From: Acidimicrobiaceae bacterium
GTDB lineage: Bacteria > Actinomycetota > Acidimicrobiia > Acidimicrobiales > Aldehydirespiratoraceae
NCBI GenBank assembly: GCA_028819005.1
Contig: JAPPMP010000015.1
Location: forward strand, 48,897-112,896
Direction of reading: 5' to 3'
Length of the DNA stretch: 64,000 nt
This document shows positions 35,025-49,860 of this stretch, piece after piece. The position numbers were made by a program, and so were the translations under genes. The first letter of the stretch is position 1, and every line of letters starts with the position of its first letter. Under the pieces are notes generated by a model. It saw only the letters and a program-made list of their open reading frames with translations. It made no database searches and had not been told where the DNA came from.

Positions 35025-35345
35025 GTGCCGATCGTTGCCTGCCCGCATTGCGAAGAGGAAGAAAACCTCCAAGGCGACAACGTCGACGGCGCCATCACGG
35101 TGACCTGCGGCGAATGCGGCTTGGTCTGGGAACGGGACACGAATCCACGCTGCGACAAGTGCCAGGCGACCGATGTGAGGGCTGCTTGGCAGGCCACGCT
35201 CGACAAGAGCCGGGGCACTCAACTCTCCATCCAGTCGCTCAATATCGTCTGGCTGTGTCCCGAGTGCGATGCTGCGAAACTGCGCCGGTACCTCGACTCG
35301 AACGTGCCGCTGCCGCCCGATGCCCTGCCCGTCGACCCGGGTTGA
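35025..35345 (+). CDS. small four-CxxC zinc-ribbon protein, unknown function
   Basis: The 106-aa product carries CPHC, CGEC, CDKC and CPEC pairs. It has a GTG start and a weak RBS, so coding status is uncertain. Confidence 0.4.
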   Translation: MPIVACPHCEEEENLQGDNVDGAITVTCGECGLVWERDTNPRCDKCQATDVRAAWQATLDKSRGTQLSIQSLNIVWLCPECDAAKLRRYLDSNVPLPPDALPVDPG

Positions 35346-35377
35346 AGGTCACGAGGAGCCGCAGCGCTATTGCGTAG

Positions 35378-35477
35378 AACGCCTATGCGTCGGTCGGGGC
35401 CAGGGCTGCGCGCTTTGGCACGGCATGCGACTTCGTCGAAAAACGCCTATGCGTCGGTCGGGGCCAGGGCTGCGCGC
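35378..35477. repeat. exact 36-bp direct repeat (64-bp period) duplicating the 3' end of the TetR gene
   Basis: AACGCCTATGCGTCGGTCGGGGCCAGGGCTGCGCGC occurs at 35378-35413 and 35442-35477. The second copy contains the TetR stop codon (35447-35449) and its last 28 coding nt. Confidence 0.95.
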
Positions 35478-36049
35478 ACAAAACGGGTCAGCTCCGCGCG
35501 GCGCACGACAGTGGCCCGGCGGGACGGGGGTATTCCCATGGCCCGCTGAACTTCAAGTTCGCTGGCAACACCGACGACGGTCGAGTACAGCGACAAGAGA
35601 AGCATCGACGGATCGGAGCGCCGCAGACGACCGGCTTCCATCTCGCTCTCGAGGAACCGGCGGGCCCGGTCGACAGTCGGGCCGACGTGAGCGCTCAGGC
35701 GTCCGACCGTTATTGATCCCGGGCGCGTGACTTCTCTGACCAGCCCGAGAAGTTCCGGCCTGTTGACCGCCAATCGAAAGATCCGGCGAACGATCGCCTC
35801 CACCTGATCAATGCCGGTCATTCCCCGCGACGCCTCCTGTTCAAACAGTTCAACAAGGTCTTGCGCCGCGGCGTCGATCACCGAATCGAACAGCGCCTGT
35901 TTCGAGGGGAAATAGTAGAGGATGGTCTGCTTTCGCACGCCAAGCTGCTCGGCCAAAGCGTCCAGTGAAGTGGCCGAATAACCGTCCGTGCCGAACGCAG
36001 ACAGTGCCGCATCCAGCACCCGCTGCCGGGTCGGCACGAAATTGTTCAT
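35447..36049 (-). CDS. TetR/AcrR-family transcriptional regulator
   Basis: The N-terminal HTH reads RQRVLDAALSAFGTDGYSATSLDALAEQLGVRKQTILYYFPSKQALF. Confidence 0.9.
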   Translation of the reverse strand: MNNFVPTRQRVLDAALSAFGTDGYSATSLDALAEQLGVRKQTILYYFPSKQALFDSVIDAAAQDLVELFEQEASRGMTGIDQVEAIVRRIFRLAVNRPELLGLVREVTRPGSITVGRLSAHVGPTVDRARRFLESEMEAGRLRRSDPSMLLLSLYSTVVGVASELEVQRAMGIPPSRRATVVRRAELTRFVRAALAPTDA

Positions 36050-36054
36050 GCCTT

Positions 36055-36076
36055 CTCTCTACCATTTGGTAGAGAG
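36055..36076. promoter_or_regulatory. perfect 22-bp palindrome, candidate TetR operator
   Basis: CTCTCTACCA-TT-TGGTAGAGAG lies in the 46-bp divergent gap between the tetR ATG (36049) and the reductase start (36096). Confidence 0.55.
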
Positions 36077-36095
36077 GTTTGCTATAACAAGTACT

Positions 36096-38582
36096 GTGAT
36101 TTCCGCCGAACTGAACAAGACGCGCATCGCGATCACCGGCGCGACCGGCTTCTTGGGCACCGCACTCGTCGAACGACTCCTTCGCTCAGTCCCCGAAAGC
36201 GAGCTGGTCCTAGTGGTACGGCCCGGCCGTCGGGGAGCACAGAATCGCCTGGACCGTGACATCTTCCGCAACGACGCGTTCGAGCGGATCCGCAGCACCT
36301 TCAACGACGAGAGCCATGAGACCTTCGAGGAGATGTGCAGGCGCCGAGTCTTCGCCGTGGCCGGCGACGTGGGCGCCGATGGGCTCGGGCTCGACCCCGA
36401 AGGCCTCGCCCTTCTCGCCACCTGCGACATCGTCATCCACTCAGCCGCCACGGTCAGTTTCGACTCTGCCCTCGATGATGCGGTCGAGATCAACCTGCTA
36501 GGACCCATGCGAGTCGCCGCGGCCATGCGAGCCGCGGCAGCAGCGCGCGAAGAACCCACTCGGGGCGGGCTCGAAACCGGCGAGTCGGCGCACCTGATCG
36601 CGGTGTCCACCTGTTATGTCGCAGGCAGTCGCCGAGGCAGCGCACCCGAAGAACTCATCGACGAGTCGCCGTTCTTCGTAGACGTGGATTGGCAGACCGA
36701 AGTCGACAGCGCCCGGCGCGCCCGAATCGACGCCGAACAGGCGAGCCGCACACCGCAGCGACTCAGCGAACTCGCGAAACAGGCTCGCCGAAGCCTCGGT
36801 GCGGCCGGAGGTCCGGCTCTCACCGACAAGGTCGAACAACTACGCCAGAAGTGGGTCGCTCAACAGTTGACCGACGCAGGCCGGTCGCGGGCTTCGAGCC
36901 TGGGCTTTCCGGACGCTTACGCATTCACAAAGGCGCTCGGTGAACGCGCCCTCGTGGAAACCCGCGGAAACGTGCCGGTGAGCATCGTGCGCCCGTCGAT
37001 CATCGAGTCGGCGTTCGCAGAACCGGCGCCGGGATGGATTCGCGGCTTCCGCATGGCCGAACCAGTCATCGCTGCCTATGCCCGGGGCCTGCTCAAGGAG
37101 TTCCCGGGCATCCCCGAAGGAGTGATCGACATCATTCCGGTGGATCTGGTTGTCGCGACGATTCTCGCGGTCGCAACCCGCGGCCCAGAACACGACGAGA
37201 ACCAGGCGCACAAGCCTGATGTCGTGCAGATCGCCTCGGGCGCAGCTAACCCGCTCATGTACGCGCAGTTGGTCGACCTGGTTCGCAGTTGGTTCAACGA
37301 ACACCCCGTCTACGACGACAGAAACCAGCCGATCTCGGTTCCCGAATGGTCGTTCCCGGGTCGTGGCCGGGTGGTCCGCCAGCTCGGGCGCGCCAAAAAG
37401 ACACTCGACCTGGGCGAGCGGGCCCTGAATGTTCTCCCGTTGCGCGGCAAGCATGCGGACTTCAGCGCTGAACTGGAGGAACGCAAAGAACAACTCGAGC
37501 GGGCCAACGGCTATGTCGAATTGTACGGGGCATACGCAGAGTGCGAAGCGCTCTATCTGCTCGACCGGATGTATGCGCTGTGGGAATCACTCGACGAGGA
37601 CGATCGGCGCGATTTCTCCATGGATCCGCGAGTCGTTCATTGGCCGACGTACGTGCAGAGCGTGCATCTGCCGTCGATGGTCAAGCAGGCCCGCCTGAAG
37701 ATGCAACCCGGCGCAAAGAGCACTCAGTCGCGGTCGGCTCGACTGCGCAAGCAGGTGCTCGCACACGAGCGACAGCTCGCAGTGTTCGATCTGGAGAACA
37801 CGCTGATCGCCAGCAACGTCGTGGCCAGCTACGCATGGCTGGCAACTCGCCATCTAAACGTCGCCGACCGCATGAGCTTCACCATGAAGACCCTGCGGGA
37901 AGCACCTGCGCTGCTTTCGCTGGACCGCCAGGATCGCAGTGATTTCCTGCGCTATTTCTACCGCCGGTTCGAGGGGGCTCCTGTTGAGCTGATGGCTCGA
38001 GACTCACGCGAGATGCTCAGCGACCTGTTGATCGCCAAGTCGTTCCCAGCGGGGATCCGCAGGGTCCGCGAGCATCGGGCGCTGGGTCACAAGACTCTGC
38101 TGATCACCGGGGCGTTGGACTTCGTCGTCGAGCCTTTGCGACCGCTGTTCGATCACATGATCACCGCAGAGATGACCGCGACCAACGGCTCCTACGACGG
38201 TCAACTCATCGCGGTGCCGCCAACCGGTGAGGCCCGCTACCAGACTCTCGTGGATTTCGCCGAGGCTCACGATCTGGATCTGCGTCAAGCCGTGGCGTAT
38301 GCCGACAGCAGTTCCGATCTGCCGATGCTTGAAGCCGTCGGATTCCCGGTGGCTGTCAACGCCGAAACGAAGCTCGCTTCGATCGCCCGCCGCAGGGGTT
38401 GGCTGATCGAGCATTGGGCAAAATCCGCCGGAGCCCCGAACCGGCTGCTTCCCATCAGTCCCCGGGCGCATCGGGAGCCCTCTGCCACCCGACAAAGGGC
38501 CACCCGACAAAGGGCCACCCGACAAAGGGCCAACCGACAAAGGGCCAACCGCCTAAGGGAGGTGACTGCAAATGCCCTCTGA
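36096..38582 (+). CDS. fusion protein: fatty acyl-CoA reductase (NAD_binding_4 / male-sterility type) + HAD-IB-like hydrolase domain, with C-terminal ATRQR repeats
   Basis: The reductase part shows ITGATGFLGTALVERLL and YAFTKALGE (YxxxK). The HAD-like motif I is VFDLENTLIASN, with downstream LITGALDFV and AYADSSSDLPML. GTG 36096 is chosen, and ATG 36048 would overlap the tetR start codon and the palindrome. Confidence 0.8.
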   Translation: MISAELNKTRIAITGATGFLGTALVERLLRSVPESELVLVVRPGRRGAQNRLDRDIFRNDAFERIRSTFNDESHETFEEMCRRRVFAVAGDVGADGLGLDPEGLALLATCDIVIHSAATVSFDSALDDAVEINLLGPMRVAAAMRAAAAAREEPTRGGLETGESAHLIAVSTCYVAGSRRGSAPEELIDESPFFVDVDWQTEVDSARRARIDAEQASRTPQRLSELAKQARRSLGAAGGPALTDKVEQLRQKWVAQQLTDAGRSRASSLGFPDAYAFTKALGERALVETRGNVPVSIVRPSIIESAFAEPAPGWIRGFRMAEPVIAAYARGLLKEFPGIPEGVIDIIPVDLVVATILAVATRGPEHDENQAHKPDVVQIASGAANPLMYAQLVDLVRSWFNEHPVYDDRNQPISVPEWSFPGRGRVVRQLGRAKKTLDLGERALNVLPLRGKHADFSAELEERKEQLERANGYVELYGAYAECEALYLLDRMYALWESLDEDDRRDFSMDPRVVHWPTYVQSVHLPSMVKQARLKMQPGAKSTQSRSARLRKQVLAHERQLAVFDLENTLIASNVVASYAWLATRHLNVADRMSFTMKTLREAPALLSLDRQDRSDFLRYFYRRFEGAPVELMARDSREMLSDLLIAKSFPAGIRRVREHRALGHKTLLITGALDFVVEPLRPLFDHMITAEMTATNGSYDGQLIAVPPTGEARYQTLVDFAEAHDLDLRQAVAYADSSSDLPMLEAVGFPVAVNAETKLASIARRRGWLIEHWAKSAGAPNRLLPISPRAHREPSATRQRATRQRATRQRANRQRANRLREVTANAL
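38484..38551 (+). repeat. 15-bp coding tandem repeat (about 4.5 units) encoding (A-T/N-R-Q-R)n
   Basis: GCCACCCGACAAAGG occurs three times, then GCCAACCGACAAAGG and a partial unit. The repeat ends about 20 bp before the next gene's start. Confidence 0.95.
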
Positions 38583-40188
38583 TCCTCGACGCAAGGCGCC
38601 CAGGCCCGGTTTCGTGCTCGATGTGGACAAGTCGACTCCCCCGATCCTGTTCCACCACGGTGAGCAGTTCCGTCTCGAGAAACTGCCCGCAGACCGCAGC
38701 CGCGTGATCTATCCCGCAGAACCCCTGCCCGGGTTGCAAGACCCCGACGAGGCGATCCGCGAAGCACTGCTCAACCCGATCAATGAAGACCCGCTGCCCG
38801 CGTTGCTGTGGGCGGGAATGAAGCTGACGATCGCCTTCGACGATCTGTCGCTGCCGCTGCCGTCGATGCGCCGGCCCGACATCCGCCAGCGGATCATCGA
38901 GCAGGTCCTCGACATGGCAGCAGCGGCAGCCGTGGACGACGTCCACCTCATCGCGGCTCTGGCTCTGCATCGCCGGATGACTGAGGCCGAATTGCGTCAC
39001 GCCCTCGGTGATCGCATCTACGACGCATTCGCTCCCCAGCAGACGCTCTACAACCACGACGCCGAAGATCCCGACGGCATGGTAGAGCTGGGTCTGACCC
39101 GCCACGACGAGCAGGTGACCATGAACCGGAGAGCCGCCGAATCGGATCTGCTGATCTACGTCAACCTCAACATTGTCTCGATGGACGGCGGTTGGAAGTC
39201 AACAGCAACCGGCCTCTCGGACTACAAGGGGGTGCGTCATCATCACAACGTGGCGACGATGCAGAACTCGAAGAGTTTCATGGATCGCCACTCCTCGGAA
39301 CTGCATCACTCGAACTGGCGCCAAGGTGAAGTGATCAAGGCTCACGGCCCCCGGATCTTCCAGATCGAAACGACGATCAACAACAACACCTTCGGCTACG
39401 ACGGTCCCCTGTCGGTCCTGCAAAAACGCGAATGGGAGTGGTCCGCTCGCGACCGGGCGACCTTCATCGGAATGAAGAACGGCCTCGACGTGATGCCATC
39501 GGCCGCGCGGCGCAAGATCTTCCAAGCTTGGCAGGCGCCGTACGAACTCACGTCGGTCCAGGCCGGCGAGGTGGAATCAGTCCACCAGCAGACCCTTGAG
39601 AACGTCTTCACGCAACACATCGTGCCCGTCGAGGGACAGACCGACGTGTTGACTTTCGGCCTTCCCTACATCTGCCCCTACAACGTCAACTCGGTTATGA
39701 ACCCGATCCTGGTGATGTGCCTCGGACTCGGCTACTTCTTCAACCTCTACCGAGGCAGACCCCTGGTGCGCGAGGGCGGCGTGGTGATCATGAGCCATCC
39801 CACACCATGGGAGTTCCACCCCGTTCATCACCCCAGCTACATCGATTTCTTCGAGCAGGTGCTGGGCGACACCACCGATCCGATTGAGATCGAGAAGCGC
39901 TACGAGGAACAGTTCGCCTACGACGAGTGGTACATCCACCTGTACCGCAACAGCTACGCATACCACGGAGTCCACCCGTTCTACATGTGGTACTGGGGGG
40001 CGCACGCTCTGCAATGGCTCGGACGGGTCATTGTCGTCGGCGGCGACCCGCGGTCGGTCCGCCGCCTCGGCTTCCAGCCGGCGTCCACCATGCAAGACGC
40101 GCTGGAGATGGCCGGCGATGTAGTCGGCCCTGATCCCTCGATCACGCATTTCCACAATCCGCCGATTCTGATGGCGGACGTGACATGA
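38572..40188 (+). CDS. LarA-like (lactate racemase N-terminal domain / DUF2088) protein, 538 aa
   Basis: IAALALHRRMTEAEL resembles the LarA G-T-H-R-x-M-T segment. SMDGGWKS resembles the GG-x-K-S segment that carries the cofactor-tethering Lys. A strong SD AAGGGAGGTG precedes the ATG, which overlaps the upstream gene by 11 bp. Confidence 0.75.
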   Translation: MPSDPRRKAPRPGFVLDVDKSTPPILFHHGEQFRLEKLPADRSRVIYPAEPLPGLQDPDEAIREALLNPINEDPLPALLWAGMKLTIAFDDLSLPLPSMRRPDIRQRIIEQVLDMAAAAAVDDVHLIAALALHRRMTEAELRHALGDRIYDAFAPQQTLYNHDAEDPDGMVELGLTRHDEQVTMNRRAAESDLLIYVNLNIVSMDGGWKSTATGLSDYKGVRHHHNVATMQNSKSFMDRHSSELHHSNWRQGEVIKAHGPRIFQIETTINNNTFGYDGPLSVLQKREWEWSARDRATFIGMKNGLDVMPSAARRKIFQAWQAPYELTSVQAGEVESVHQQTLENVFTQHIVPVEGQTDVLTFGLPYICPYNVNSVMNPILVMCLGLGYFFNLYRGRPLVREGGVVIMSHPTPWEFHPVHHPSYIDFFEQVLGDTTDPIEIEKRYEEQFAYDEWYIHLYRNSYAYHGVHPFYMWYWGAHALQWLGRVIVVGGDPRSVRRLGFQPASTMQDALEMAGDVVGPDPSITHFHNPPILMADVT

Positions 40189-41138
40189 GCCGCCTGGCCA
40201 AGCAACTCAGCCTGCCGCCGCTGCCGCGGGCACTCTCGCCGATCCGCCGTTATCGAGCCCTCGGTTTCCCCTACCGCGCGCCGTCGACTCCTCGCGGTGC
40301 AGCCCCCGCTCCCAAGACCATCCACAGCGGCGCCGACTACGACGCGAGCTGGGCCCGCAAGTACCCCGCTCGTCTGGCGAGGGCCGCGATCGTGGACGGC
40401 CCGATGCGGTTGGCCGTTACCGGACTGGCTGCGCCGGACCGCCGAGGACAGGATCGCTTGGCGTCGCTGCAGGGCCCGGCCATCTTTGCAGCCAATCATC
40501 ACAGCCATCTCGACACGCCGCTGCTGTTGACGTCGATTCCCGAACCGTGGCGCCACCAGATCCTGGTGGGCGCCGCGGCCGACTACTTCTTCGGGACCCG
40601 GCTGACATCAGCGTTGTCTTCTTTGGTGATCGGGGCGATTCCGATCGAGCGCAGCCGAGTGAGCCGTCGTTCCGCAGATCAGGCAGCCGATCTGGTCGCG
40701 CAAGGTTGGAGCTTGCTGCTGTTCCCCGAGGGCGGTCGCAGTCCCGACGGTTGGGGTCAGCCGTTCCGCGGCGGAGCCGCATATCTGGCGCAGAAGTCTG
40801 GGAAACCCGTTGTGCCGATCCACATCGAGGGCACCGGGCGCATATTGCGGAAGGGCAAATCACTGCCCCGCCCCTCGGCCGCGTCGGTCACTTTCGGCAG
40901 GCCGCTGCGACCGAGTCAAGACGAGAACACCGTTCGCTTCGCAGCCCGTATTGAAGCCGAGGTGTCGGCGCTCGCCGATGAGGCCTCCTCGGACTGGTAC
41001 CGAGCCCGGATCAGAGCCCACGCGGGCGCCACGCCGCAGCTAACCGGTCCCTCCACGGGAGCCTGGCGCAGGGCTTGGGCGCTCGGTGACCGCTCACGCC
41101 GGGCACGCCGGCGAACTCGGCGCTGGCCCAATCTCTGA
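40185..41138 (+). CDS. 1-acyl-sn-glycerol-3-phosphate acyltransferase family (PlsC-type) protein
   Basis: It carries the HX4D motif NHHSHLD and the FPEGGRS motif. An ATGA overlap links it to the LarA-like gene. Confidence 0.85.
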   Translation: MSRLAKQLSLPPLPRALSPIRRYRALGFPYRAPSTPRGAAPAPKTIHSGADYDASWARKYPARLARAAIVDGPMRLAVTGLAAPDRRGQDRLASLQGPAIFAANHHSHLDTPLLLTSIPEPWRHQILVGAAADYFFGTRLTSALSSLVIGAIPIERSRVSRRSADQAADLVAQGWSLLLFPEGGRSPDGWGQPFRGGAAYLAQKSGKPVVPIHIEGTGRILRKGKSLPRPSAASVTFGRPLRPSQDENTVRFAARIEAEVSALADEASSDWYRARIRAHAGATPQLTGPSTGAWRRAWALGDRSRRARRRTRRWPNL

Positions 41139-41183
41139 GAGCGCCTGGACTTCTGGGCGGACAACCGCGGACGTTAGGCTCTG

Positions 41184-42062
41184 ATGATGCGCTTCTCGTA
41201 TGCGGAGTCAATGATCGACCCAACGATGTATGCACCGCTCGTGCAGGCGGCAGAGGCGGCGGGGTTCGACAATTTCGTTGTTCCCGACTCGATCTGCTAC
41301 CCACTCGACGCCGACACCAAATACCCGTACAACGCCGACGGCAGCCGCGAGTTCCTCGAAGGCAAACCGTTCATCGAGCCCTTCTCTTTGATCCCCGCGC
41401 TGGCAGCGGTCACCGAACGCATAAGTTTCACCACGTTCGTCGTGAAACTCCCTATCCGGCATCCCGTCCTGGTGGCCAAGCAGGTCACTTCGGTCGGCGT
41501 GATCACCAACGGGCGTTTCCGGTTCGGCGTCGGCACCAGCCCCTGGCGCGAAGACTACGACGTCGCGGGCGTACCGTGGGAGAGGCGCGGCGCACGCATG
41601 GACGAGTGCATCGAGATCATCAACGGACTCCAAACCGGGGAGTTCTTCGGCTACTCCGGCGAGTTCTACGAGATCCCCGACATTCAACTCCGACCGGTTC
41701 CCGAACAGAGGGTTCCGATCCTGGTCGGCGGACACTCGGCGATGGCCCTCGAACGTGCCGGGCGGTTGGGAGACGGTTGGATCCACGCCGGTGGAGAACC
41801 CGGCGAGCTGGCCCGCATGATGTCGGTGGTCGAGGAGTCTCGCCGACGCCACGGTCGGGCCGATCTGCCCTTCGACGTCCTCGCCATCAGTGTCGACGCC
41901 TACTCCCCCGAGGGTATCGAACGGCTCGAAGCGGCCGGGGTGACAGACGTGATCGTCGGTTTCCGAGACGCCTATTCGCCCGGACCCGACACCCAACCAC
42001 TAGAGGAGAAACTCGGCGCACTGCAGTGGTACGCCGACGAAGTCCTCGCCAAAGTCCTCTAA
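41184..42062 (+). CDS. LLM-class (luciferase-like) oxidoreductase, probably F420-dependent
   Basis: The protein is luciferase-like monooxygenase-type over its whole length (...FDNFVVPDS..., ...RFRFGVGTSPWREDY...). The cofactor assignment is inference. Confidence 0.8.
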   Translation: MMRFSYAESMIDPTMYAPLVQAAEAAGFDNFVVPDSICYPLDADTKYPYNADGSREFLEGKPFIEPFSLIPALAAVTERISFTTFVVKLPIRHPVLVAKQVTSVGVITNGRFRFGVGTSPWREDYDVAGVPWERRGARMDECIEIINGLQTGEFFGYSGEFYEIPDIQLRPVPEQRVPILVGGHSAMALERAGRLGDGWIHAGGEPGELARMMSVVEESRRRHGRADLPFDVLAISVDAYSPEGIERLEAAGVTDVIVGFRDAYSPGPDTQPLEEKLGALQWYADEVLAKVL

Positions 42063-42154
42063 CAGCGCCCAGTTCCCCTCTCCATCCCGACCCGGCCGAC
42101 TAACTTCGCGACTGGAGGGAACCAAACGCCCTTTCCGGGCGTCGTTGGGGGGTA

Positions 42155-42685
42155 ATGGAGACGATTGCAGTTATGTCAAACGATGGCCCGACATTCTCGG
42201 TCGCCGCGATGGAGCCGGTCGAGTCGGACAACGGGTTTGTTGTCGGCAAGTTCGACGATCTCTACCGGGCCGAATATGCGCCAATGGTGAAACTCGCCCG
42301 GGGACTGGTGGACTCATCTGAGCGCGCCGAGGAAATCGTGCAGGACGCTTTTGCCAAGGTCTTCGAGCGGTGGGACCGTCTCCGTGCGCCCGGTGGCTAT
42401 CTGCGCATCAGTGTGATCAACGGTGCTCGCAGCGAACTCCGCAAGCGTGAAGTGAGTCGAAGGCTCGGCTTGGCACGACGAGCTGAAGACGCCGCCACCG
42501 AACGGGACTATCTGCTCGACGCCCTCGATCAACTTCCGGCGAAACAAAAAACGGTTCTGGTGCTGCGCTTTTATGCAGACATGTCCGAAAGGGAGATCGC
42601 CGACACTTTGGGCATTCGCCCCGGAACCGTGAAGAGCGCGACCTCGAGAGGACTGGCACGACTGCGAAAGGCCCTTGAACAATGA
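42155..42685 (+). CDS. ECF-type RNA polymerase sigma factor
   Basis: Region 2 reads ...AEEIVQDAFAKVFERWDRL and region 4 reads QKTVLVLRFYADMSEREIADTLGIRPGTVKSATSRGLARLR. Confidence 0.85.
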   Translation: METIAVMSNDGPTFSVAAMEPVESDNGFVVGKFDDLYRAEYAPMVKLARGLVDSSERAEEIVQDAFAKVFERWDRLRAPGGYLRISVINGARSELRKREVSRRLGLARRAEDAATERDYLLDALDQLPAKQKTVLVLRFYADMSEREIADTLGIRPGTVKSATSRGLARLRKALEQ

Positions 42686-44307
42686 ACAACGAACCGAGAA
42701 CCACACAGGAACTGAACGACGCCGACGAAACGCTCGGTTCTGCGATCAGCTCAGCCATAAACGCCCAGGTCGACGCACCTGTCGCAACGCCTCCCGTATC
42801 GCTGATCGCCGAGCGGGCCGAAGCCCGGGCCCGGACCCGAGCTATTCAACGAACGGTGGTCGGAATCGCCGCTTCGATAACCCTGCTGGCAGGCGGACTC
42901 GTCGCATACAATGCGTTCGCCGACGACGCCACCGCCGACATCGTCGCCACCGAGCCCTCTGTCACGACGGCGACGACTCCGGCGGACTCCGCTCCCGAGT
43001 CATCGGACGAGACCGCTGCGCCCACCGAAAACGATGTGCCGGCGCCGGTCTTCGCTCAACAAGACGCCGCTGAGCTGTTCGGAACCGACACGCATGTCGA
43101 AGGCCTCCAAACTATCGGCGACGGACGTGTGATGGCCGTCGCCTACGGCGAGACTCACACAAATCTGATCATCACCGACAACGGCGAGGACTGGACCCAG
43201 ATATCCCTCCCCGACGGCGCCTCACCCGACATCGTCGACCTCTCCGGTCCTCGATGGTTGATAACGACTCTGGATTGGGAGGGACCCCCACGGAGTTACT
43301 TCTCCGATGATGAGGGGGCCAGCTGGTCCGAAGTCGACCTGAGCGCCGTGGATGGGCAGTCGCCCACACTGGTAAACGCGCTCGTTTCGGGCGAGAAACT
43401 GCTGTTCATCTTCAAGGGAGCGATCGACTACGAAGGACAGAACCGCGAAGTGCTGGCGTTGATCGAAGAGCAAGGCCTCGTGTCGGCCGGAACCGCGATC
43501 GGAGGCTGGGAGATTCAGGGAACCACCCTCTGTTTCGTTCCCGACACATCCGATGCTCCGACATTCGACCTGTGCGGCGACCAAGACCACGCCACGACCG
43601 CCGCGCCATACGAGTTCGAACTCAGCGACCAGGACCTGGAAGCAATCGGTCAATACCGGGCACCCGGCGATCAGATTCAGATTTACGCGAGCGACGGTGG
43701 AGCCGCAACTCTCTCGGCCGTATACGAAAGCTGGCACACTACAGCCGACAGCGATTCCGCGGGCTTCTACATTGCCATGACAACACCAACCGATGGGTTG
43801 TTGATCACCTCAGCCGACGGGTACGGGTGGACCGAGACTTCGATCGACTCGCTATCACTCGACGCCGCGCTATCACTCGACGCCGGAGTGCTGACGACGT
43901 TCCGAACCGACCACTGGTTCGTCAGAAGCTCCGACCAGGGTTTGACCATTCAATCGCTGGCCCAGATGGCCAACGAGACCCCCCTCTCGGTCACGATCCC
44001 GGCCGCTGAGAGTCTCTTGTCTCTGGAGACGGGACCCTCAGCGATGGCGGCGACCGTCTTCAGCTTCACCGGCGACGCAACCGATCCAACCGAGGGAGTT
44101 CAACTGATCGGCTGGTCCCACGACGGCAAGTCATGGAACTTGCGAAGCCCCTCCGAAGCGTTCGGGATCGGCTACGACGAAGTCTCGGTCACCTTGGCCG
44201 TAGGCGACCACTATGTGTTGGCTCATGTCACCGGCTTCGAACCCGCCGCCACCGACGAGGGTCTAGTAGCGCAACCCCCGAAGTGGTTCAAAGCGACCAT
44301 TGAGTAG
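42682..44307 (+). CDS. single-pass membrane protein, putative anti-sigma factor with large extracytoplasmic domain
   Basis: An ATGA overlap links it to the sigma gene. One TM segment (VVGIAASITLLAGGLVAY) is followed by about 450 aa of unassigned domain. Confidence 0.55.
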   Translation: MNNEPRTTQELNDADETLGSAISSAINAQVDAPVATPPVSLIAERAEARARTRAIQRTVVGIAASITLLAGGLVAYNAFADDATADIVATEPSVTTATTPADSAPESSDETAAPTENDVPAPVFAQQDAAELFGTDTHVEGLQTIGDGRVMAVAYGETHTNLIITDNGEDWTQISLPDGASPDIVDLSGPRWLITTLDWEGPPRSYFSDDEGASWSEVDLSAVDGQSPTLVNALVSGEKLLFIFKGAIDYEGQNREVLALIEEQGLVSAGTAIGGWEIQGTTLCFVPDTSDAPTFDLCGDQDHATTAAPYEFELSDQDLEAIGQYRAPGDQIQIYASDGGAATLSAVYESWHTTADSDSAGFYIAMTTPTDGLLITSADGYGWTETSIDSLSLDAALSLDAGVLTTFRTDHWFVRSSDQGLTIQSLAQMANETPLSVTIPAAESLLSLETGPSAMAATVFSFTGDATDPTEGVQLIGWSHDGKSWNLRSPSEAFGIGYDEVSVTLAVGDHYVLAHVTGFEPAATDEGLVAQPPKWFKATIE

Positions 44308-44367
44308 ACCCCGATGCAGCGGACCGCCGAACACGCATAACCTGAAGCACACAGTCCCCTCCAAGCC

Positions 44368-44413
44368 CTGTGGGCGGCCGAAGCGCTCCCCCCAACGCTT
44401 CAGCCGCCCACAG
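44368..44413 (+). terminator. 18-bp-stem hairpin downstream of the anti-sigma gene
   Basis: CTGTGGGCGGCCGAAGCG-(10 nt)-CGCTTCAGCCGCCCACAG has one mismatch. There is no T-tract, so an intrinsic-terminator role is tentative. Confidence 0.4.
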
Positions 44414-44513
44414 TCGGGGGCACAAACGAAAGAACTTCGGACGCACGGCGGGTTTCGGGTATTCGGGGGACTTGTATAGTGGAAGCAAGGCCCCCAACAG
44501 AACAGGTCCGAAC

Positions 44514-46837: not shown

Positions 46838-48457
46838 CTAGACGAAGATGCGCACGCAGGCGTCTCCGGCCCACATGCTGAGCACACGACCCTCGGGGGT
46901 CGCGTCCGAAGTCGTTCCGCTGATCACCCCTCCCGAGGCCGGATTGGCAACCGAGAAGAGTCCGAGTTCCTCGCCTTCCATCGGCTGGAGCATCTCAAGC
47001 GAGCTCCCGTAGGCCACTTCGAGAAACCCGACCGTGGCCGAAACGCCGAGGCCGTCCTTGGTGACGAGTCCTGTTGGATCGGTGTGGCCCGAGACGTACC
47101 ACTGTCCGAAGGTGCCCGTGGACGCCGGTATGAACTCGGCGCCTTCGTCACCGTCACCGGGCTCACCGTCCGCGTCGGCGGGTATTGCAACGGGTGGATC
47201 CTGCAGGAACACCAACTCCAATTGGCCCCAGCGGACCGAGCGCGCCCCGTCTGCGCAAGCGTCGGTCGTCCCGAAATTCGTGGCACTGTCGGGAGCACCG
47301 AGGACGGATCTGATTTCATCGAGGACCGATTCCATCGGTTGCCCGAATCGGACCACGGCGCCTGTGTCGAACTGCAACCCGGTTTCGACGAGCGTGACCG
47401 GCCCCGGCGTGCCGACCGCGACCGGAGTGGTGGTCGTTGTCGTCGAAGTCGTGCTGGATGTGGTTGTTGCAGCTGACGTTGCGGCGTCGGGAGCCTCGGT
47501 CGTCTCGGGCCGGGTGCTTGTCGGTGCGGTCGTCGGCGCTGTTGTCGGAGAGGCGATCGTGGTGGGAGGTTCAGTATCTGCAGGCGCCGTGTCTTCGGTG
47601 ACCGGAGGCTCGGTCGTGCGGATGTTGGGCGAGTCGTCACCGGCGAGAAAGATGATCAACCCCCCGACCACACCGACAAGAAAGACCAGGGCCAGGGTGA
47701 TCAGAGCCTGCGATGCTCCGCTGCGAGGAGGCGGCTCGGAACCGCGGGCAGCGGCCGGCGGGCCGACCGACCCCATGACCTGCGTTGCGTCGTACTGCGG
47801 AGGATCCGAGGACGACACCTGTTCGGGGCTGGGACGCGCGGGATCAACCGGCGACTCATCGTCGAAGACCGACACCGACTCGGGCCGCGGCACATCGGGG
47901 ACGGGCACCACCGGCGTCCTCGAGGTGATCGGTTGTCCGAGGTCCTCTCGGGTGACGAAATGCGCCGAGGAGAGACTCCCTGCTCGCGCCGCTCCCGCGG
48001 CGAGGGCCGCCACACCCGTGACAGGCGACGGTTGAGCCGCCGCCGCCGAACGCGGCACAACAATCGTATCGGCCATCCCCGACGCCACACCCGCCTGCAC
48101 TATTCGATCGCGTGCCGCCCCCTGCCAGTCGTCGTCGACGATCACCGCCAAGCGGACTGGAGTCTTTTCTCCGGCCGCGGCAGCGCGGTGAATCACGAAC
48201 CCCAGGACCGCCGCCAACGCGCCGATTCTTCCTGTCGCCGCTCGTTGCAGGGGGTTCGTGACGCGAGGTCCCTCTGTGACCAGTGCTGCTTCGTCGCCGA
48301 CCAGCACAGAGCCGCCCTCACCCTGAGCGACAACCGCAGCGGCTGCAGCATCGGAATCACCCAGCACGACCACACGGGGCGGATCCGCCGATGCTGCGTC
48401 GAAACGAACCGCAGTGATGCGGGTTTCGCTGATATGCACGCCGAGGGTGTCGGTCAT
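46838..48457 (-). CDS. hypothetical membrane protein (cytoplasmic N-domain, one TM, Thr/Pro-rich linker, unknown C-domain)
   Basis: The 539-aa ORF has a TM segment ALITLALVFLVGVVGGLIIFLAG followed by a TTxPT-rich stretch. Its start overlaps the upstream HAD-PlsC stop by 4 bp. Confidence 0.6.
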   Translation of the reverse strand: MTDTLGVHISETRITAVRFDAASADPPRVVVLGDSDAAAAAVVAQGEGGSVLVGDEAALVTEGPRVTNPLQRAATGRIGALAAVLGFVIHRAAAAGEKTPVRLAVIVDDDWQGAARDRIVQAGVASGMADTIVVPRSAAAAQPSPVTGVAALAAGAARAGSLSSAHFVTREDLGQPITSRTPVVPVPDVPRPESVSVFDDESPVDPARPSPEQVSSSDPPQYDATQVMGSVGPPAAARGSEPPPRSGASQALITLALVFLVGVVGGLIIFLAGDDSPNIRTTEPPVTEDTAPADTEPPTTIASPTTAPTTAPTSTRPETTEAPDAATSAATTTSSTTSTTTTTTPVAVGTPGPVTLVETGLQFDTGAVVRFGQPMESVLDEIRSVLGAPDSATNFGTTDACADGARSVRWGQLELVFLQDPPVAIPADADGEPGDGDEGAEFIPASTGTFGQWYVSGHTDPTGLVTKDGLGVSATVGFLEVAYGSSLEMLQPMEGEELGLFSVANPASGGVISGTTSDATPEGRVLSMWAGDACVRIFV

Positions 48458-49860
48458 GATCCGTCTCCGGATCTGCCGCCCTCGCCGTGGCCTGGGGGAA
48501 ACGTGCGGGCCAACTCTTCTGGGGTCGGGTCGTGGACGACCTTTCCCTCCGCCGGATGGAGATCGAAGATCGACGACATCACCAGTTCAATGCCGTCCGC
48601 CAAGCCGACGCTGTCCGGAAGCCGGAGTGCCTCGCCCACCCTCACACGGACCTTCGGGGGGTTGACGATGTTGAACATCTTGGGGACGCGTGCTGACCGT
48701 GGCCACACATGTTCGGTGCCCCACAACGAGATCGGCACTATCGGCGCGCCAGTCATGCGCTGCAATCGGACAACACCTGGCCGACCGGTCATCTGGGGGT
48801 CGAAAAAAGCCTCACCTCGAGGAATGGTTCCCTGAGGCAGGATGACGACTGCCTCACCCGCGTCCAGCGCTTCAGCCGCCGCGACCAGCGGTGCGTCCGA
48901 ACCACTCCCGCGGTCGACGGGAATCGCCCCCATGGCCGTGGCCATAGGGCCGACCACAGGCGCGTCGAACATCTCTTTCTTGGACAGGAAGCGGGCCGGA
49001 CGGCCCCTCTTCGACAGGGCCGCTCCCAGCGCATACACGTCGAAATAGCTGCGATGATTGGCAGCGATGATCATTGGTCCCTTTTCGGGAATGTGCTTGA
49101 GCCCAGTGAATTCGAATCGGGCATAGGGCACCAGTTCGGGCCGCGCCAGCATCGCCAGAGCCCTCTGAGGTTCAATTCCAGCGAACTGTGGCACGCCTTC
49201 GGGAGAATCGAAATGGCGCACGGGCCAGCGTCGGGCTGTGGCTGCCACCGCCAACCTCGGGTCGGGGTTCACCGCGACCGGGCGTCCAACTGCTTTGAGC
49301 AACGGCAAGTCGTACCAGCTGTCGGAATACGCGTAGCTCTGAGCCATGTCGACAGCGCGGGCCTCAGCCCACTGTTGGACCGCAGCCAGTTTGCCCCTGC
49401 CCCACACGTAGTGGCCGTCAACCTCACCTTCGAACACGCCGCTGGCGCGGGCGTAGCGCGTGGCAACGATGTCGTCGAAACCGAGCGCATCGGCCAACGG
49501 GCGTACCAGGTCATCTGGGCTCGTGGTCGCAATCACAAGCTTTCTGCCCTGTTCCTGGTGCATTCTTATTTCACTACGGGCATATGGCAGAACCTCCTCC
49601 ACCAGCCTCGAAGCCGCGATCTCGCCTGCCTTGGCCACCAGCTCGGCATCCCACCCCTTCGAGAAGCGCACACCCTGTTTGGCCAGCAGCATGGAGGGTC
49701 TGGTTTCGCCAATGAGATCAAAGACGCCGAACAGCAATCCCTCGCCTGGTACCGGGCTATCCGCCAAGACTCCGATCTCGCGCAGCGCTTGCGACAACGC
49801 CGGACCCGAAGCCCCCTTCAACAGTGTCCGGTCGAGATCGAAGAAAGCGGCTGCGCTCAC
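48454..49860 (-). CDS. bifunctional-type HAD-IB hydrolase / 1-acyl-sn-glycerol-3-phosphate acyltransferase fusion (mycobacterial PlsC-like)
   Basis: It has HAD motif I AFFDLDRTL, then the acyltransferase HX4D motif NHRSYFD and the region LPQGTIPRG. GTG 49860 is preferred over ATG 49995/49962, which would collide with the divergent LysR start. Confidence 0.8.
   Translation of the reverse strand: MSAAAFFDLDRTLLKGASGPALSQALREIGVLADSPVPGEGLLFGVFDLIGETRPSMLLAKQGVRFSKGWDAELVAKAGEIAASRLVEEVLPYARSEIRMHQEQGRKLVIATTSPDDLVRPLADALGFDDIVATRYARASGVFEGEVDGHYVWGRGKLAAVQQWAEARAVDMAQSYAYSDSWYDLPLLKAVGRPVAVNPDPRLAVAATARRWPVRHFDSPEGVPQFAGIEPQRALAMLARPELVPYARFEFTGLKHIPEKGPMIIAANHRSYFDVYALGAALSKRGRPARFLSKKEMFDAPVVGPMATAMGAIPVDRGSGSDAPLVAAAEALDAGEAVVILPQGTIPRGEAFFDPQMTGRPGVVRLQRMTGAPIVPISLWGTEHVWPRSARVPKMFNIVNPPKVRVRVGEALRLPDSVGLADGIELVMSSIFDLHPAEGKVVHDPTPEELARTFPPGHGEGGRSGDGS

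What the first reader, a model, noticed from the sequence alone, without database searches (positions are those of the whole stretch)
35447..41138. TetR-guarded, translationally coupled operon: acyl-CoA reductase-HAD fusion / LarA-like protein / PlsC acyltransferase, a lipid-modifying module of unassigned function
Three + strand genes overlap one another. The reductase-HAD fusion (36096-38582) overlaps the LarA-like gene (38572-40188) by 11 bp, and that gene overlaps the PlsC-type gene (40185-41138) by 4 bp (ATGA). They are divergent from a TetR gene, and a perfect 22-bp palindrome (36055-36076) fills the 46-bp gap.

- **Domains seen.** The first protein has a fatty acyl-CoA reductase fold (GATGFLG, YAFTK). 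It is fused to a HAD-IB-like domain whose motif I reads D-L-E-N-T, with Glu where the second Asp is usual.
- **LarA-like features.** The 538-aa middle protein retains the H-R-x-M-T segment and the GG-x-K-S segment. By eye these correspond to the catalytic His and the cofactor-tethering Lys of nickel-pincer lactate racemase.
- **Acyltransferase.** The third protein has the HX4D and FPEGGRS motifs.
- **Paralogue in the window.** The window also holds a conventional fused HAD-IB/PlsC gene (48454-49860). The operon therefore looks like that module split, with a reductase fused on and a racemase/epimerase-like gene inserted.

I know of no described pathway that combines a LarA homologue with acyl reduction and glycerolipid-type acylation. 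A speculative role is stereoinversion or oxidation of a 2-hydroxy centre in a lipid backbone or head group during ether- or alcohol-lipid synthesis.
Basis: partly seen in the sequence, partly recalled or inferred. Interest (0 to 1): 0.7.

Follow-up and report, generated by a model that had tools for sequence, protein, structure and literature searches.

The report
Rearranged bacterial ether-lipid (elb-type) operon
This three-gene operon in an Acidimicrobiia bacterium is a re-shuffled version of the myxobacterial "elb" ether-lipid gene cluster, and it shows that the cluster's protein of unknown function (ElbC) belongs to the nickel-cofactor lactate-racemase family, which gives a testable candidate for a long-missing step in bacterial ether-lipid synthesis.

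Summary
A tetR gene and three overlapping + strand genes sit at the stated coordinates. The three genes are an acyl reductase-HAD fusion, a LarA homologue, and a PlsC-type acyltransferase. The "perfect 22-bp palindrome" is really 10+2+10.

The operon is not an orphan. The reductase-HAD / LarA homologue / acyltransferase order is kept in all about 80 Acidimicrobiia loci fetched. The same domains recur, re-partitioned, in Chloroflexota and in Myxococcota.

In Anaeromyxobacter the gene order is epimerase, HAD, Lar_N protein, reductase/AMP-ligase/carrier/acyltransferase fusion, epimerase. That is the published elbABCDE ether-lipid operon. Desguin 2020 Table S3 lists MXAN_1529 as LarA-homologue Group 15, and by locus-tag order MXAN_1529 is elbC.

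The window protein passes the NCBIfam LarAH14/15/16 cut-off. It keeps the cofactor-binding Lys, the nickel-binding His and one catalytic His. It has lost the second catalytic His and the carboxylate-binding Arg.

Best reading: an elb-type lipid module under TetR control, probably making alkyl-ether lipid. The LarA homologue would perform a redox-neutral hydride step on the lipid backbone. That chemistry and the product are inferred, not shown.

No library paper containing "DUF2088" mentions ether lipids. I rate it a new variant of a known kind, of moderate to high interest.

The parts
35447..36049 (-). TetR-family repressor gene, divergent from the operon
   Evidence: Pfam TetR_N 8e-15. No NCBIfam equivalog reaches its cut-off. 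A TetR homologue sits divergently upstream in most related loci.
36055..36076 (.). Putative TetR operator. Inverted repeat CTCTCTACCA-TT-TGGTAGAGAG, conserved core TCTACCA-N2-TGGTAGA at 36058-36073
   Evidence: The arms are 10 nt and 100% complementary, 2 nt apart. The core is unique in the window against 0.07 expected. The same core lies in the tetR/reductase intergenic region of many Acidimicrobiia; 47 of 68 loci carry it at <=2 mismatches.
36096..38582 (+). 828-aa fusion of fatty acyl-CoA/ACP reductase (NAD_binding_4, aa 13-356; weak Sterile match, aa 469-525) with a HAD-IB phosphatase-like domain (aa 561-771)
   Evidence: Pfam. TIGR01490 scores 96.3 bits against a cut-off of 98.3. The reductase part is 30-34% identical to the N-terminus of ElbD-like proteins and to a Chloroflexota reductase-acyltransferase fusion. 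The HAD part is 32-36% identical to ElbB-like HADs.
37788..37802 (+). HAD motif I, D-L-E-N-T (Glu instead of the second Asp)
   Evidence: All 74 orthologous motif-I segments recovered from the related loci read D-L-E-x-T. The fusion in L091 also has DxExT. Stand-alone ElbB-like HADs have DVDGT and the window paralogue has DLDRT.
38484..38559 (+). 15-bp tandem repeat, 5.1 copies, encoding an (ATRQR)n tail at the C-terminus of the fusion protein
   Evidence: TRF result and translation. The closest relative's protein is shorter, at 804 aa.
38572..40188 (+). 538-aa ElbC-type LarA homologue (LarAH14/15/16 family), a single-histidine, putatively nickel-pincer-nucleotide-dependent enzyme. Key codons: D91 38842, L94 38851, H133 38968, N200 39169, K209 39196, H225 39244, Y370 39679, H468 39973
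   Evidence: NF052592 scores 884.5 bits against a cut-off of 740. The AF2 model has pLDDT 95.9. The best PDB matches are 9q3k/9q3j, TM 0.77/0.86. The five motifs are kept in 120 of 120 close homologues.
40185..41138 (+). 317-aa PlsC/AGPAT-type acyltransferase (HX4D at aa 105-110, FPEGGRS at aa 180)
   Evidence: Pfam Acyltransferase 5e-18. It is 36-40% identical to the acyltransferase domains of ElbD-like and Chloroflexota reductase-acyltransferase proteins, against 26% to the window paralogue. It shares an AA-DYFF motif with them.

Best explanation
The operon is the Acidimicrobiia form of the elb-type lipid module known from myxobacteria. It carries the same catalytic domains, packaged differently.

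**Proposed working.**
1. TetR sits on the conserved operator TCTACCA-N2-TGGTAGA between the divergent genes. It releases the operon when a lipid-type ligand binds (inferred).
2. The reductase domain turns an activated fatty acid into a fatty aldehyde or alcohol (inferred from family).
3. The PlsC/AGPAT-type enzyme acylates a glycerol-phosphate or dihydroxyacetone-phosphate backbone (inferred from family).
4. The ElbC-type LarA homologue carries a nickel-pincer nucleotide on Lys209, with His225 bound to the nickel. With its single catalytic His133 it takes a hydride from the C2 hydroxyl of the glycerol-phosphate lipid backbone and gives it back. This is a redox-neutral step, not a racemisation. 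It would create the transient 2-keto intermediate needed to exchange the sn-1 acyl group for an alkyl group without an AGPS enzyme. Alternatively it shuttles hydride between fatty aldehyde and backbone. This step is a hypothesis.
5. The HAD domain removes the phosphate (inferred).

**Expected product.** A 1-O-alkyl glycerolipid.

**Status of the claims.**
- Shown here: homology, residue conservation, synteny and domain re-partitioning across three phyla.
- Shown by others: the genetic requirement of the elb operon for ether lipids in M. xanthus.
- Inferred: the chemistry of the LarA homologue and the product in Acidimicrobiia.
For: **Synteny within the class.**
- Reductase-HAD / LarA homologue / acyltransferase is kept in every one of about 80 Acidimicrobiia loci where the contig allows.
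- The LarA homologue is the most conserved gene of the set, at 67-95% identity.
- 54 of 81 loci add a Zn-dehydrogenase gene between the fusion and the LarA homologue.

**Same domains, other packaging.**
- Chloroflexota: Zn-dehydrogenase / LarA homologue / lipid kinase / reductase-acyltransferase fusion / HAD / PlsY.
- A Myxococcales genome from a metagenome: HAD / LarA homologue / reductase-AMP-ligase-carrier-acyltransferase.
- Anaeromyxobacter paludicola: the full five-gene order.

**Link to elb.**
- This matches elbABCDE as described in PMC9131029 and PMC13012113.
- MXAN_1529 is elbC by locus-tag order. Desguin 2020 Table S3 lists it as LarA-homologue Group 15.
- The window, Chloroflexota and myxobacterial proteins all pass the same NCBIfam equivalog cut-off. 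They share the motifs DD(I/L)SLPLP, LHRRMT, YVNxN and MDGG(W/H)KS, and the HH pair that includes the Ni-binding His.
- Each window component is closer to its elb-type counterpart than to the window paralogue.

**Cofactor and fold.**
- The cofactor Lys, the Ni-binding His, the ribose Asp and one catalytic His are kept in 120 of 120 close homologues. The His and the Lys are kept in 116 and 118 of 118 Myxococcota-like ones.
- The fold matches the single-His nickel-pincer enzymes best.
- Arg75->Leu and His174->Asn argue against a 2-hydroxy-acid racemase.

**Regulation.** The operator is conserved.

**The open step.** The ether-bond-forming step of the ElbD route is stated to be unknown.
Against: - No lipid data exist for any Acidimicrobiia in the library searched.
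- The operon lacks the acyl-AMP ligase and carrier domains of ElbD. It also lacks the ElbA/ElbE-type epimerase-family reductases. The window lineage lacks even the Zn-dehydrogenase found in most relatives.
- None of the window ORFs scanned with Pfam is a larB, larC or larE gene (about 28.4-35.4 kb was not scanned). The rest of the genome could not be searched.
- The Frankia member LarAH14 was loaded with cofactor and showed no activity on seven 2-hydroxy acids. That is neutral for a lipid substrate, but it also means no activity of this group has ever been seen.
- Divergent relatives that have lost the His and the Lys still sit in the same synteny (L091, L092; Desguin Group 16). A non-catalytic role therefore cannot be excluded.
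- In M. xanthus the role of elbC itself has not been reported as tested, and elbB effects were put down to polarity.
Confidence: 0.6

Rival explanations
1. The module makes or remodels a fatty-alcohol-derived lipid that is not an ether lipid, for example wax-ester-like or diol-based lipids or an unusual phosphatidic-acid derivative. The LarA homologue would isomerise a hydroxy/keto group on that product.
For: The reductase, acyltransferase, phosphatase, Zn-dehydrogenase and, in Chloroflexota, lipid kinase and PlsY fit several lipid routes. The Acidimicrobiia form lacks the ElbD ligase-carrier part and ElbE. No ether lipids are reported for the class in the library.
Against: The only experimentally studied cluster with this domain set is required for alkyl and vinyl ether lipids. 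All core components are closest to their elb-type counterparts.
Confidence: 0.2
2. The LarA homologue is a non-catalytic partner in the module, acting as scaffold, lipid binder or regulator. It does not use the nickel cofactor.
For: Relatives that have lost the catalytic His and the tethering Lys keep the HAD / LarA homologue / acyltransferase order. LarAH14 was inactive in all assays tried. No cofactor-synthesis genes are in the window.
Against: In the window's own clade the Lys, both His residues, the Asp and the Asn motifs are invariant in 120 of 120 sequences. The protein is the most conserved of the cluster. The degenerate forms are rare, fast-evolving offshoots: P0124's nearest relatives are canonical forms at about 50% identity.
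Confidence: 0.12
3. The LarA homologue is an ordinary soluble 2-hydroxy-acid racemase or epimerase that merely lies next to lipid genes.
For: It belongs to the Lar_N family, and NCBIfam words the family name as 'hydroxyacid isomerase'.
Against: The second catalytic His and the carboxylate-binding Arg are replaced. The association with reductase, HAD and acyltransferase domains survives gene fusion and fission across three phyla. LarAH14 is inactive on seven 2-hydroxy acids.
Confidence: 0.03
4. One reading: the operon arose from the window's HAD-PlsC gene by splitting, fusion of a reductase and insertion of a racemase-like gene.
For: Both loci contain HAD-IB and PlsC-type domains.
Against: The acyltransferase is 26% identical to the paralogue (E 3e-8) but 36-40% identical to ElbD-type domains (E about 1e-26). 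The HAD domain is also nearer to ElbB-like HADs (E 1e-30 to 1e-31 against 5e-18).
Confidence: 0.05

Closest known systems
Myxococcus xanthus elbABCDE ether-lipid operon (MXAN_1531-1527; MIBiG BGC0000871; Lorenzen et al. 2014, as summarised in PMC9131029 and PMC13012113)
   Same: It has the same core domain set: HAD phosphatase (ElbB), LarA homologue (ElbC = MXAN_1529), and acyl reductase plus AGPAT-like acyltransferase (ElbD). The LarA homologues are about 48-50% identical, pass the same NCBIfam equivalog cut-off and have identical active-site motifs.
   Different: In the window the reductase is fused to the HAD, not to the acyltransferase. There are no acyl-AMP ligase or carrier domains and no ElbA/ElbE epimerase-family genes. 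Control is by a divergent TetR. HAD motif I reads DxExT instead of DxDxT.
LarA-homologue Group 14 (Frankia Franean1_4168 = LarAH14) and NCBIfam NF052592 'LarAH14/15/16 family' (Desguin et al. 2020, PMC7583248)
   Same: It is the same family, with the window protein scoring 884 bits against a cut-off of 740. The residue pattern is the same: Asp, Ile/Leu for Arg75, His108 kept, no His174, Lys and Ni-His kept. The recorded context is the same: COG0204, COG0560, COG1063, COG3320.
   Different: The window lineage lacks the Zn-dehydrogenase (COG1063) partner. The published work lists the group as 'unknown function'; LarAH14 showed no activity, and the main text contains none of the words 'lipid', 'acyl' or 'ether'.
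Single-histidine LarA-like nickel-pincer enzymes LarA(Sp) and LarA(Bw) (PDB 9Q2U/9Q3K/9Q3J; PMC12611868)
   Same: They are the best structural match (TM 0.77/0.86). They share the catalytic His, the Asn in place of the second His, the tethering Lys, the Ni-binding His, and the Tyr and His of the substrate pocket (Y370<->Y307, H468<->H401).
   Different: Sequence identity is only about 20-22%. His306 is Pro and Lys76 is Leu in the window protein. Their gene context is glycolysis and sugar metabolism, not lipid genes.
Lactate racemase LarA of Lactiplantibacillus plantarum (PDB 5HUQ)
   Same: It shares the fold and the cofactor-holding residues: Asp72, His108, Lys184 and His200 all have equivalents.
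   Different: The window protein has no second catalytic His and no Arg75. It is about 100 residues longer and only about 17% identical.
Reductase-GNPAT fusions (FARAT; MXAN_1675, Tetrahymena) working with AGPS in the classical aerobic ether-lipid pathway (PMC13012113)
   Same: Acyl reductase and a glycerol-phosphate-type acyltransferase are coupled in one locus. The Chloroflexota relative even has the two fused.
   Different: No AGPS homologue lies in the operon or among the window ORFs scanned. A LarA homologue is present instead.

Membership tests
LarA superfamily (Lar_N / DUF2088) | Significant match to the family model, and the LarA two-domain fold | tested here: met
   Pfam Lar_N 1.4e-36. 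AF2 model pLDDT 95.9. The 19 PDB matches with E <= 0.001 are all LarA-family structures.
LarA superfamily (Lar_N / DUF2088) | Cofactor-holding residues: Lys that tethers the cofactor, His that binds nickel, Asp at the ribose | tested here: met
   K209<->K184, H225<->H200, D91<->D72 by profile alignment to 2YJG/6D6Z/9Q2U. These are invariant in 120 of 120 close homologues.
LarA superfamily (Lar_N / DUF2088) | Two catalytic histidines (His108 and His174), needed for racemisation | tested here: not met
   H133<->H108 is present. The position of His174 is Asn200. Desguin Table S3 shows a gap at this position for groups 14 and 15.
LarA superfamily (Lar_N / DUF2088) | Arg75, which binds the cofactor phosphate and the substrate carboxylate | tested here: not met
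   Leu94 aligns with Arg75. Desguin's table gives Ile/Leu/Val in groups 14 and 15.
LarA superfamily (Lar_N / DUF2088) | Cofactor synthesis genes larB, larC and larE in the same genome, and actual cofactor binding | not testable with these tools
   None among the window ORFs scanned with Pfam (about 28.4-35.4 kb unscanned).
NCBIfam NF052592, LarAH14/15/16 family | Whole-protein score above the curated cut-off (740 bits) | tested here: met
   884.5 bits. The Anaeromyxobacter, Myxococcales-MAG and Chloroflexota counterparts score 850, 769 and 822. The degenerate L091 variant scores 544.
elb-type ether-lipid gene cluster (BGC0000871) | ElbC-type LarA homologue next to a HAD phosphatase (ElbB) | tested here: met
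   The HAD domain ends 174 nt before the LarA-homologue start, and the two genes overlap. The same adjacency is seen in L088 and L090. MXAN_1529 is Group 15.
elb-type ether-lipid gene cluster (BGC0000871) | Acyl reductase domain and AGPAT-like acyltransferase domain (both part of ElbD) | tested here: met
   Both are present but on separate proteins. They are 30-31% and 36-39% identical to the ElbD-like domains.
elb-type ether-lipid gene cluster (BGC0000871) | Acyl-AMP ligase and acyl-carrier domains of ElbD | tested here: not met
   No AMP-binding or PP-binding domain in the operon or among the window ORFs scanned with Pfam (about 28.4-35.4 kb unscanned).
elb-type ether-lipid gene cluster (BGC0000871) | ElbE (and ElbA) NAD-dependent epimerase/dehydratase-family genes | tested here: not met
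   Absent from the window operon. 54 of 81 related loci carry a Zn-dehydrogenase instead, but the window does not.
elb-type ether-lipid gene cluster (BGC0000871) | Operon-dependent production of alkyl or alkenyl glycerol ether lipids | not testable with these tools
   This needs lipid analysis. No report for Acidimicrobiia was found.
Fatty acyl-CoA reductase (NAD_binding_4 / Sterile) | Rossmann GxxGxxG motif, YxxxK catalytic motif and the C-terminal Sterile domain | tested here: met
   GATGFLG at aa 15 and YAFTK at aa 275. NAD_binding_4 1e-51. The Sterile match is below its cut-off, 28 against 35 bits.
HAD-IB phosphatase | Motif I DxDxT, with the second Asp as general acid/base (own knowledge of the family) | tested here: not met
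   The motif is D-L-E-N-T, and all 74 orthologous segments recovered read D-L-E-x-T. The Pfam HAD match is good (1e-21), but TIGR01490 is just below its cut-off, 96.3 against 98.3 bits. The later YADSSSD motif is present.
PlsC/AGPAT acyltransferase | HX4D catalytic motif and (F)PEGxRS motif | tested here: met
   HHSHLD at aa 105 and FPEGGRS at aa 180. Pfam 5e-18.
TetR-family repressor with palindromic operator | N-terminal helix-turn-helix domain, plus an inverted repeat between the divergent genes that is conserved in relatives | tested here: met
   Actual binding and the ligand are not testable here.

The most novel reading that the evidence does not exclude
ElbC-type LarA homologues (groups 14 and 15) are nickel-pincer enzymes that act on a lipid, not on a free hydroxy acid. 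They would transiently oxidise C2 of an acyl-glycerol-phosphate, or pass hydride between fatty aldehyde and backbone. That would make them the missing AGPS-independent ether-bond-forming catalyst of the Elb pathway. It would also make Acidimicrobiia and some Chloroflexota, which are abundant in sea water, soil, sponges and sludge, unrecognised producers of alkyl ether lipids.
Probability: 0.2. Interest if true: 0.85.

Novelty: new variant of a known kind. Interest (0 to 1): 0.6.

Why it matters
Two research lines have each left the same protein unexplained.

- **Ether-lipid work.** ElbC is listed as "unknown function", and the way the ElbD route forms the alkyl ether bond is stated to be unknown.
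- **Nickel-pincer work.** LarA-homologue groups 14 and 15 are listed as "unknown function", and LarAH14 showed no activity.

Joining the two gives a concrete substrate class to test. If it holds, the chemistry of the nickel-pincer cofactor would extend from small hydroxy acids to membrane lipids.

The Acidimicrobiia and Chloroflexota variants lack the adenylation domain on which the sponge-symbiont survey built its elbD phylogeny. My inference is that searches keyed on elbD could therefore overlook them.

If these variants make ether lipids, the source assignment of non-isoprenoid alkyl glycerol ethers used as environmental biomarkers would need revising.

Tried and rejected
- **Loci search with the 39-sequence alignment A1.** It failed because no stretch was conserved enough. 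It was repeated with 12 closer sequences (A2). That returned only Acidimicrobiia, so distant contexts had to come from single look-ups.
- **Distant relatives with no lipid context.** At about 45% identity two showed none: L085 (P0135) sits among VWA, amidohydrolase and radical-SAM genes, and L086 (P0127) sits next to a flavoprotein disulfide reductase. The association does not cover the whole wider family, which also includes Asgard archaeal and Gemmatimonadota members.
- **Literature.**
  - Combined searches for lactate racemase, acyl reductase and acyltransferase, and for DUF2088 with ether lipids, found nothing.
  - Only two papers in the library contain "DUF2088", and neither concerns lipids.
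  - The original elb paper (PubMed 24814673) is not held.
  - Supplements of two myxobacterial papers gave no annotation of elbC.
- **Promoter and terminator scan of 35300-44500.** Counts were at chance level.
- **The downstream F420-dependent oxidoreductase (41184-42062).** I considered it as a stand-in for the missing dehydrogenase. I rejected it as a core part because it follows the acyltransferase only in the closest relatives.
- **The degenerate variant P0124.** A search for its relatives showed it to be an isolated offshoot of the Acidimicrobiia group. It is not a named cultured lineage.
- **larB, larC and larE.** Presence across the genome could not be tested.

Full report
**1. The observation**

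The ORF table and the sequence confirm the layout.
- tetR lies at 35447-36049 on the minus strand.
- An 828-codon gene runs from GTG 36096 to the stop at 38582.
- A 538-codon gene runs from ATG 38572 to 40188, overlapping the upstream gene by 11 nt.
- A 317-codon gene runs from 40185 to 41138, with an ATGA overlap.

The GTG start agrees with the gene called in the closest relative.

| Domain | E-value |
|---|---|
| TetR_N | 8e-15 |
| NAD_binding_4 | 1e-51 |
| Sterile | weak, below cut-off |
| HAD | 1e-21 |
| Lar_N | 1.4e-36 |
| Acyltransferase | 5e-18 |

One detail is wrong. The palindrome at 36055-36076 is two perfect 10-nt arms around a non-complementary TT, not a perfect 22-mer.

The palindrome is not a chance feature.
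- The core TCTACCA-N2-TGGTAGA occurs once in the window against 0.07 expected.
- The same core sits between tetR and the reductase gene in many relatives.
- 47 of 68 loci carry it within 250 nt upstream, allowing two mismatches.

**2. The organism and the LarA homologue**

The best matches are Acidimicrobiales genomes assembled from metagenomes. The top one is a "Candidatus Aldehydirespiratoraceae" chromosome at 95% identity. Window G+C is 63%.

The middle protein passes the curated cut-off of NCBIfam NF052592, "NPN-dependent hydroxyacid isomerase, LarAH14/15/16 family". It scores 884.5 bits against a cut-off of 740.

An AlphaFold model built on 39 diverse relatives has mean pLDDT 95.9. Its best PDB matches are the two single-histidine LarA-like nickel-pincer enzymes 9Q3K and 9Q3J (TM 0.77/0.86). 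LarA from Isosphaera and Lactiplantibacillus follow.

Profile alignment to solved LarA proteins gives the following map (LarA(Sp) residue roles):

| Window residue | Equivalent | Role | State |
|---|---|---|---|
| Asp91 | Asp72 | ribose contact | kept |
| His133 | His108 | catalytic | kept |
| Lys209 | Lys184 | cofactor tether | kept |
| His225 | His200 | nickel ligand | kept |
| Leu94 | Arg75 | phosphate and carboxylate binding | lost |
| Asn200 | His174 | second catalytic His | lost |
| Tyr370 | LarA(Sp) Tyr307 | substrate pocket | kept |
| His468 | LarA(Sp) His401 | substrate pocket | kept |
| Pro369 | LarA(Sp) His306 | substrate pocket | lost |

But the protein lacks what a two-base racemase of 2-hydroxy acids needs.

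The five motifs are invariant in all 120 close homologues.

**3. Synteny within the class**

tblastn of the window proteins against 81 related loci shows the same order wherever the contig is long enough: reductase-HAD, LarA homologue, acyltransferase.

The LarA homologue is the most conserved of the three.
- LarA homologue: 67-95% identity.
- Reductase: 47-90%.
- Acyltransferase: 45-94%.

In 54 of the 81 loci a roughly 400-aa Zn-dependent medium-chain dehydrogenase lies between the fusion gene and the LarA homologue. It resembles polyol and threonine dehydrogenases. The window and its nearest relatives lack it, and no copy is elsewhere in the 64 kb.

HAD motif I reads D-L-E-x-T in all 74 orthologous segments recovered from these loci. 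It is also present in the L091 fusion.

**4. Beyond the class: the same domains, re-partitioned**

- **Chloroflexota relative (54% identical).** The order is Zn-dehydrogenase / LarA homologue / DAGK-type lipid kinase / reductase-Sterile-acyltransferase fusion / HAD / PlsY.
- **Myxococcales relative from a metagenome (48%).** The order is HAD / LarA homologue / a 1557-aa protein with NAD_binding_4, AMP-binding, PP-binding and Acyltransferase domains / epimerase-family reductase.
- **Anaeromyxobacter paludicola, a cultured myxobacterium.** The order is epimerase (323 aa) / HAD (225) / Lar_N (537) / the four-domain protein (1582) / epimerase (342).

Short contigs of other relatives show fragments of the same neighbours.

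BLASTP shows each window component is nearer to its counterpart in these clusters than to the window's own HAD-PlsC paralogue.
- Acyltransferase: 36-40% identity (E about 1e-26) against 26% to the paralogue (E 3e-8).
- HAD: E 1e-30 to 1e-31 against 5e-18.

**5. What this maps to**

Reviews describe the M. xanthus elbABCDE operon as follows:
- ElbA and ElbE are NAD-dependent epimerase/dehydratase-family proteins.
- ElbB is a HAD-like phosphohydrolase.
- ElbC is of unknown function.
- ElbD is a reductase, acyl-CoA synthetase, carrier and AGPAT-like acyltransferase fusion.
- The locus tags run from MXAN_1531 (elbA) to MXAN_1527 (elbE).

The Anaeromyxobacter locus reproduces this architecture gene for gene. 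The Lar_N protein occupies the elbC position.

There is also independent support. Table S3 of Desguin et al. 2020 lists "MXAN_1529, M. xanthus, Group 15" among LarA homologues. By the locus-tag order, MXAN_1529 is elbC.

The Anaeromyxobacter, Myxococcales and Chloroflexota proteins all pass the same NCBIfam cut-off as the window protein. All share identical active-site motifs.

The high prevalence of LarA homologues in two phyla parallels the reported distribution of elb clusters.
- Myxococcota: 15 of 17 genomes.
- Acidobacteriota: 11 of 16 genomes.

**6. What was already on record**

Desguin 2020 Table S1 lists the gene context of these groups.
- Group 14 (Frankia and others): COG0204 PlsC, COG0560 HAD and COG1063 each at 88%, COG3320 thioester reductase at 50%.
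- Group 15: COG0451, COG0560 and COG1022.
- Group 16: COG0204 and COG0560.

However, groups 14 and 15 are labelled "Unknown function". LarAH14 was inactive on seven 2-hydroxy acids. That paper's main text contains none of the words "lipid", "acyl" or "ether".

The ether-lipid literature I could read calls ElbC a protein of unknown function. No paper in the library that contains "DUF2088" concerns ether lipids. The link between the two lines is my inference from their data plus the loci analysed here.

**7. Mechanism**

*Shown*
- Homology and synteny (sections 2-5).
- A conserved operator.
- Conservation of the cofactor-holding residues.

*Shown by others*
- elbD is required for alkyl and vinyl ether lipids in M. 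xanthus.
- An elbE mutant has reduced levels.
- The elbB effect was put down to polarity.
- The ligase and carrier activities of ElbD were verified in vitro, but its reductase and acyltransferase activities could not be shown.
- An iso-C15 aldehyde depends on elbD.
- The steps from fatty acid to alkyl ether lipid are unknown.

*Inferred*
- The reductase supplies fatty aldehyde or alcohol.
- The acyltransferase loads a glycerol-phosphate or dihydroxyacetone-phosphate backbone.
- The HAD domain dephosphorylates.
- TetR responds to a lipid ligand.

*Hypothesis for the LarA homologue*

The classical aerobic route needs acyl-dihydroxyacetone phosphate and AGPS to swap acyl for alkyl (own knowledge of the pathway; enzymes named). 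The elb route has no AGPS.

A single-histidine nickel-pincer enzyme without a carboxylate-binding Arg is suited to one specific task. It can remove and return a hydride at one face of a secondary alcohol.

- **First version.** The enzyme makes the 2-keto intermediate on an acyl-glycerol-phosphate transiently. The alkyl exchange can then occur, and the enzyme re-reduces the product.
- **Second version.** Hydride passes between fatty aldehyde and the backbone. Intermolecular hydride shuttling by a nickel-pincer enzyme has recently been shown, and was suggested there for single-His LarA homologues.

The Zn-dehydrogenase or ElbE partners would then handle any net redox step. I give the module-level reading about 0.6 and this specific chemistry about 0.2.

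**8. Evidence against, and limits**

- None of the window ORFs scanned with Pfam is a larB, larC or larE gene. The stretch from about 28.4 to 35.4 kb was not scanned.
- No lipid composition data for Acidimicrobiia turned up.
- The window form lacks the ligase-carrier part, ElbE and the Zn-dehydrogenase.
- Some divergent relatives have lost the His and the Lys yet keep the HAD / LarA homologue / acyltransferase order. They correspond to Desguin's Group 16, which those authors doubted uses the cofactor.
- This keeps a scaffold role alive. But the one such form whose relatives were searched (P0124) is an isolated offshoot of the canonical Acidimicrobiia clade. The window's clade is strictly conserved.
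- At about 45% identity, some family members sit outside any lipid context.

**9. Verdict**

The operon is not a new kind of system. It is a compact, TetR-controlled, domain-shuffled variant of the elb-type lipid cluster. It is also a member of the already tabulated LarA-homologue group 14 context.

Its value is that it makes the identity of ElbC as a LarA-family protein explicit. It gives a specific, testable candidate for an unexplained step in bacterial ether-lipid synthesis. It also points to Acidimicrobiia and Chloroflexota as possible overlooked producers.

Novelty: new variant of a known kind. Interest: 0.6.

Noticed in passing
window 38484-38559: A 15-bp tandem repeat (5.1 copies, 95% matches) encodes an (ATRQR)n basic tail at the C-terminus of the reductase-HAD protein, just before the overlap with the next gene. 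The closest relative's protein is 24 residues shorter.
   Followed up: partly
L013-L081 (54 of 81 loci), e.g. L039 6723-7997: Most Acidimicrobiia relatives carry a Zn-dependent medium-chain dehydrogenase gene between the reductase-HAD gene and the LarA homologue. The window lineage has lost it or never had it, and no copy is elsewhere in the 64 kb.
   Followed up: yes
L091 8001-9602; L092 233-1777: Divergent LarA homologues have lost the catalytic His (Gln or Arg) and the cofactor-tethering Lys. They remain in the reductase-HAD / LarA homologue / acyltransferase arrangement, so they are possible pseudoenzymes. They correspond to Desguin's Group 16.
   Followed up: partly
window 41184-42062: An F420-dependent luciferase-like oxidoreductase (TIGR03619, 189 bits, above its cut-off) starts 46 nt after the acyltransferase. 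It follows the operon only in the closest relatives (L001-L003, L005).
   Followed up: partly
window 42155-44307: An ECF sigma factor gene (42155-42685) overlaps by 4 nt a 541-aa ORF with no Pfam match (42682-44307). The ORF is probably its anti-sigma factor. It is only 43-48% identical between otherwise near-identical relatives.
   Followed up: no
window 55774-57576 (-): A full-length AceK isocitrate dehydrogenase kinase/phosphatase (both Pfam domains, E 1e-84 to 1e-104) lies near citrate synthase (52371-53666). From memory this enzyme is mostly known from Gram-negative bacteria, so its presence in an Acidimicrobiia genome may be worth a look.
   Followed up: no
window 3089-9196 (-): A 2035-aa bacterial alpha-2-macroglobulin-like protein with MG2, bait-region, A2M and bMG10 domains.
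   Followed up: no
window 9268-19801 (-): A run of minus-strand catabolic genes: two acyl-CoA dehydrogenases, a sulfatase, an amidohydrolase, a 3-hydroxyacyl-CoA dehydrogenase, a beta-keto acid cleavage enzyme (BKACE), a TauD-family dioxygenase and a 3-hydroxyisobutyrate-dehydrogenase-like protein. It resembles a carnitine- or betaine-type degradation cluster.
   Followed up: no
window 46838-48457 (-): A 539-aa ORF with no Pfam domain, and only weak low-complexity-type NCBIfam matches, lies between aconitase and the HAD-PlsC gene. It is conserved in position in close relatives.
   Followed up: no
P0174, P0260: Members of the wider family (about 32-37% identical, His and Lys kept) occur in Lokiarchaeota and Heimdallarchaeota genomes. 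Their gene context was not examined.
   Followed up: no
PMC12611868, sections 2.4 and 2.5: That paper gives the nickel-binding His of LarA(Sp) as His221 in one section and His211 in another. Counting along the 9Q2U sequence in the alignment gives His211.
   Followed up: yes
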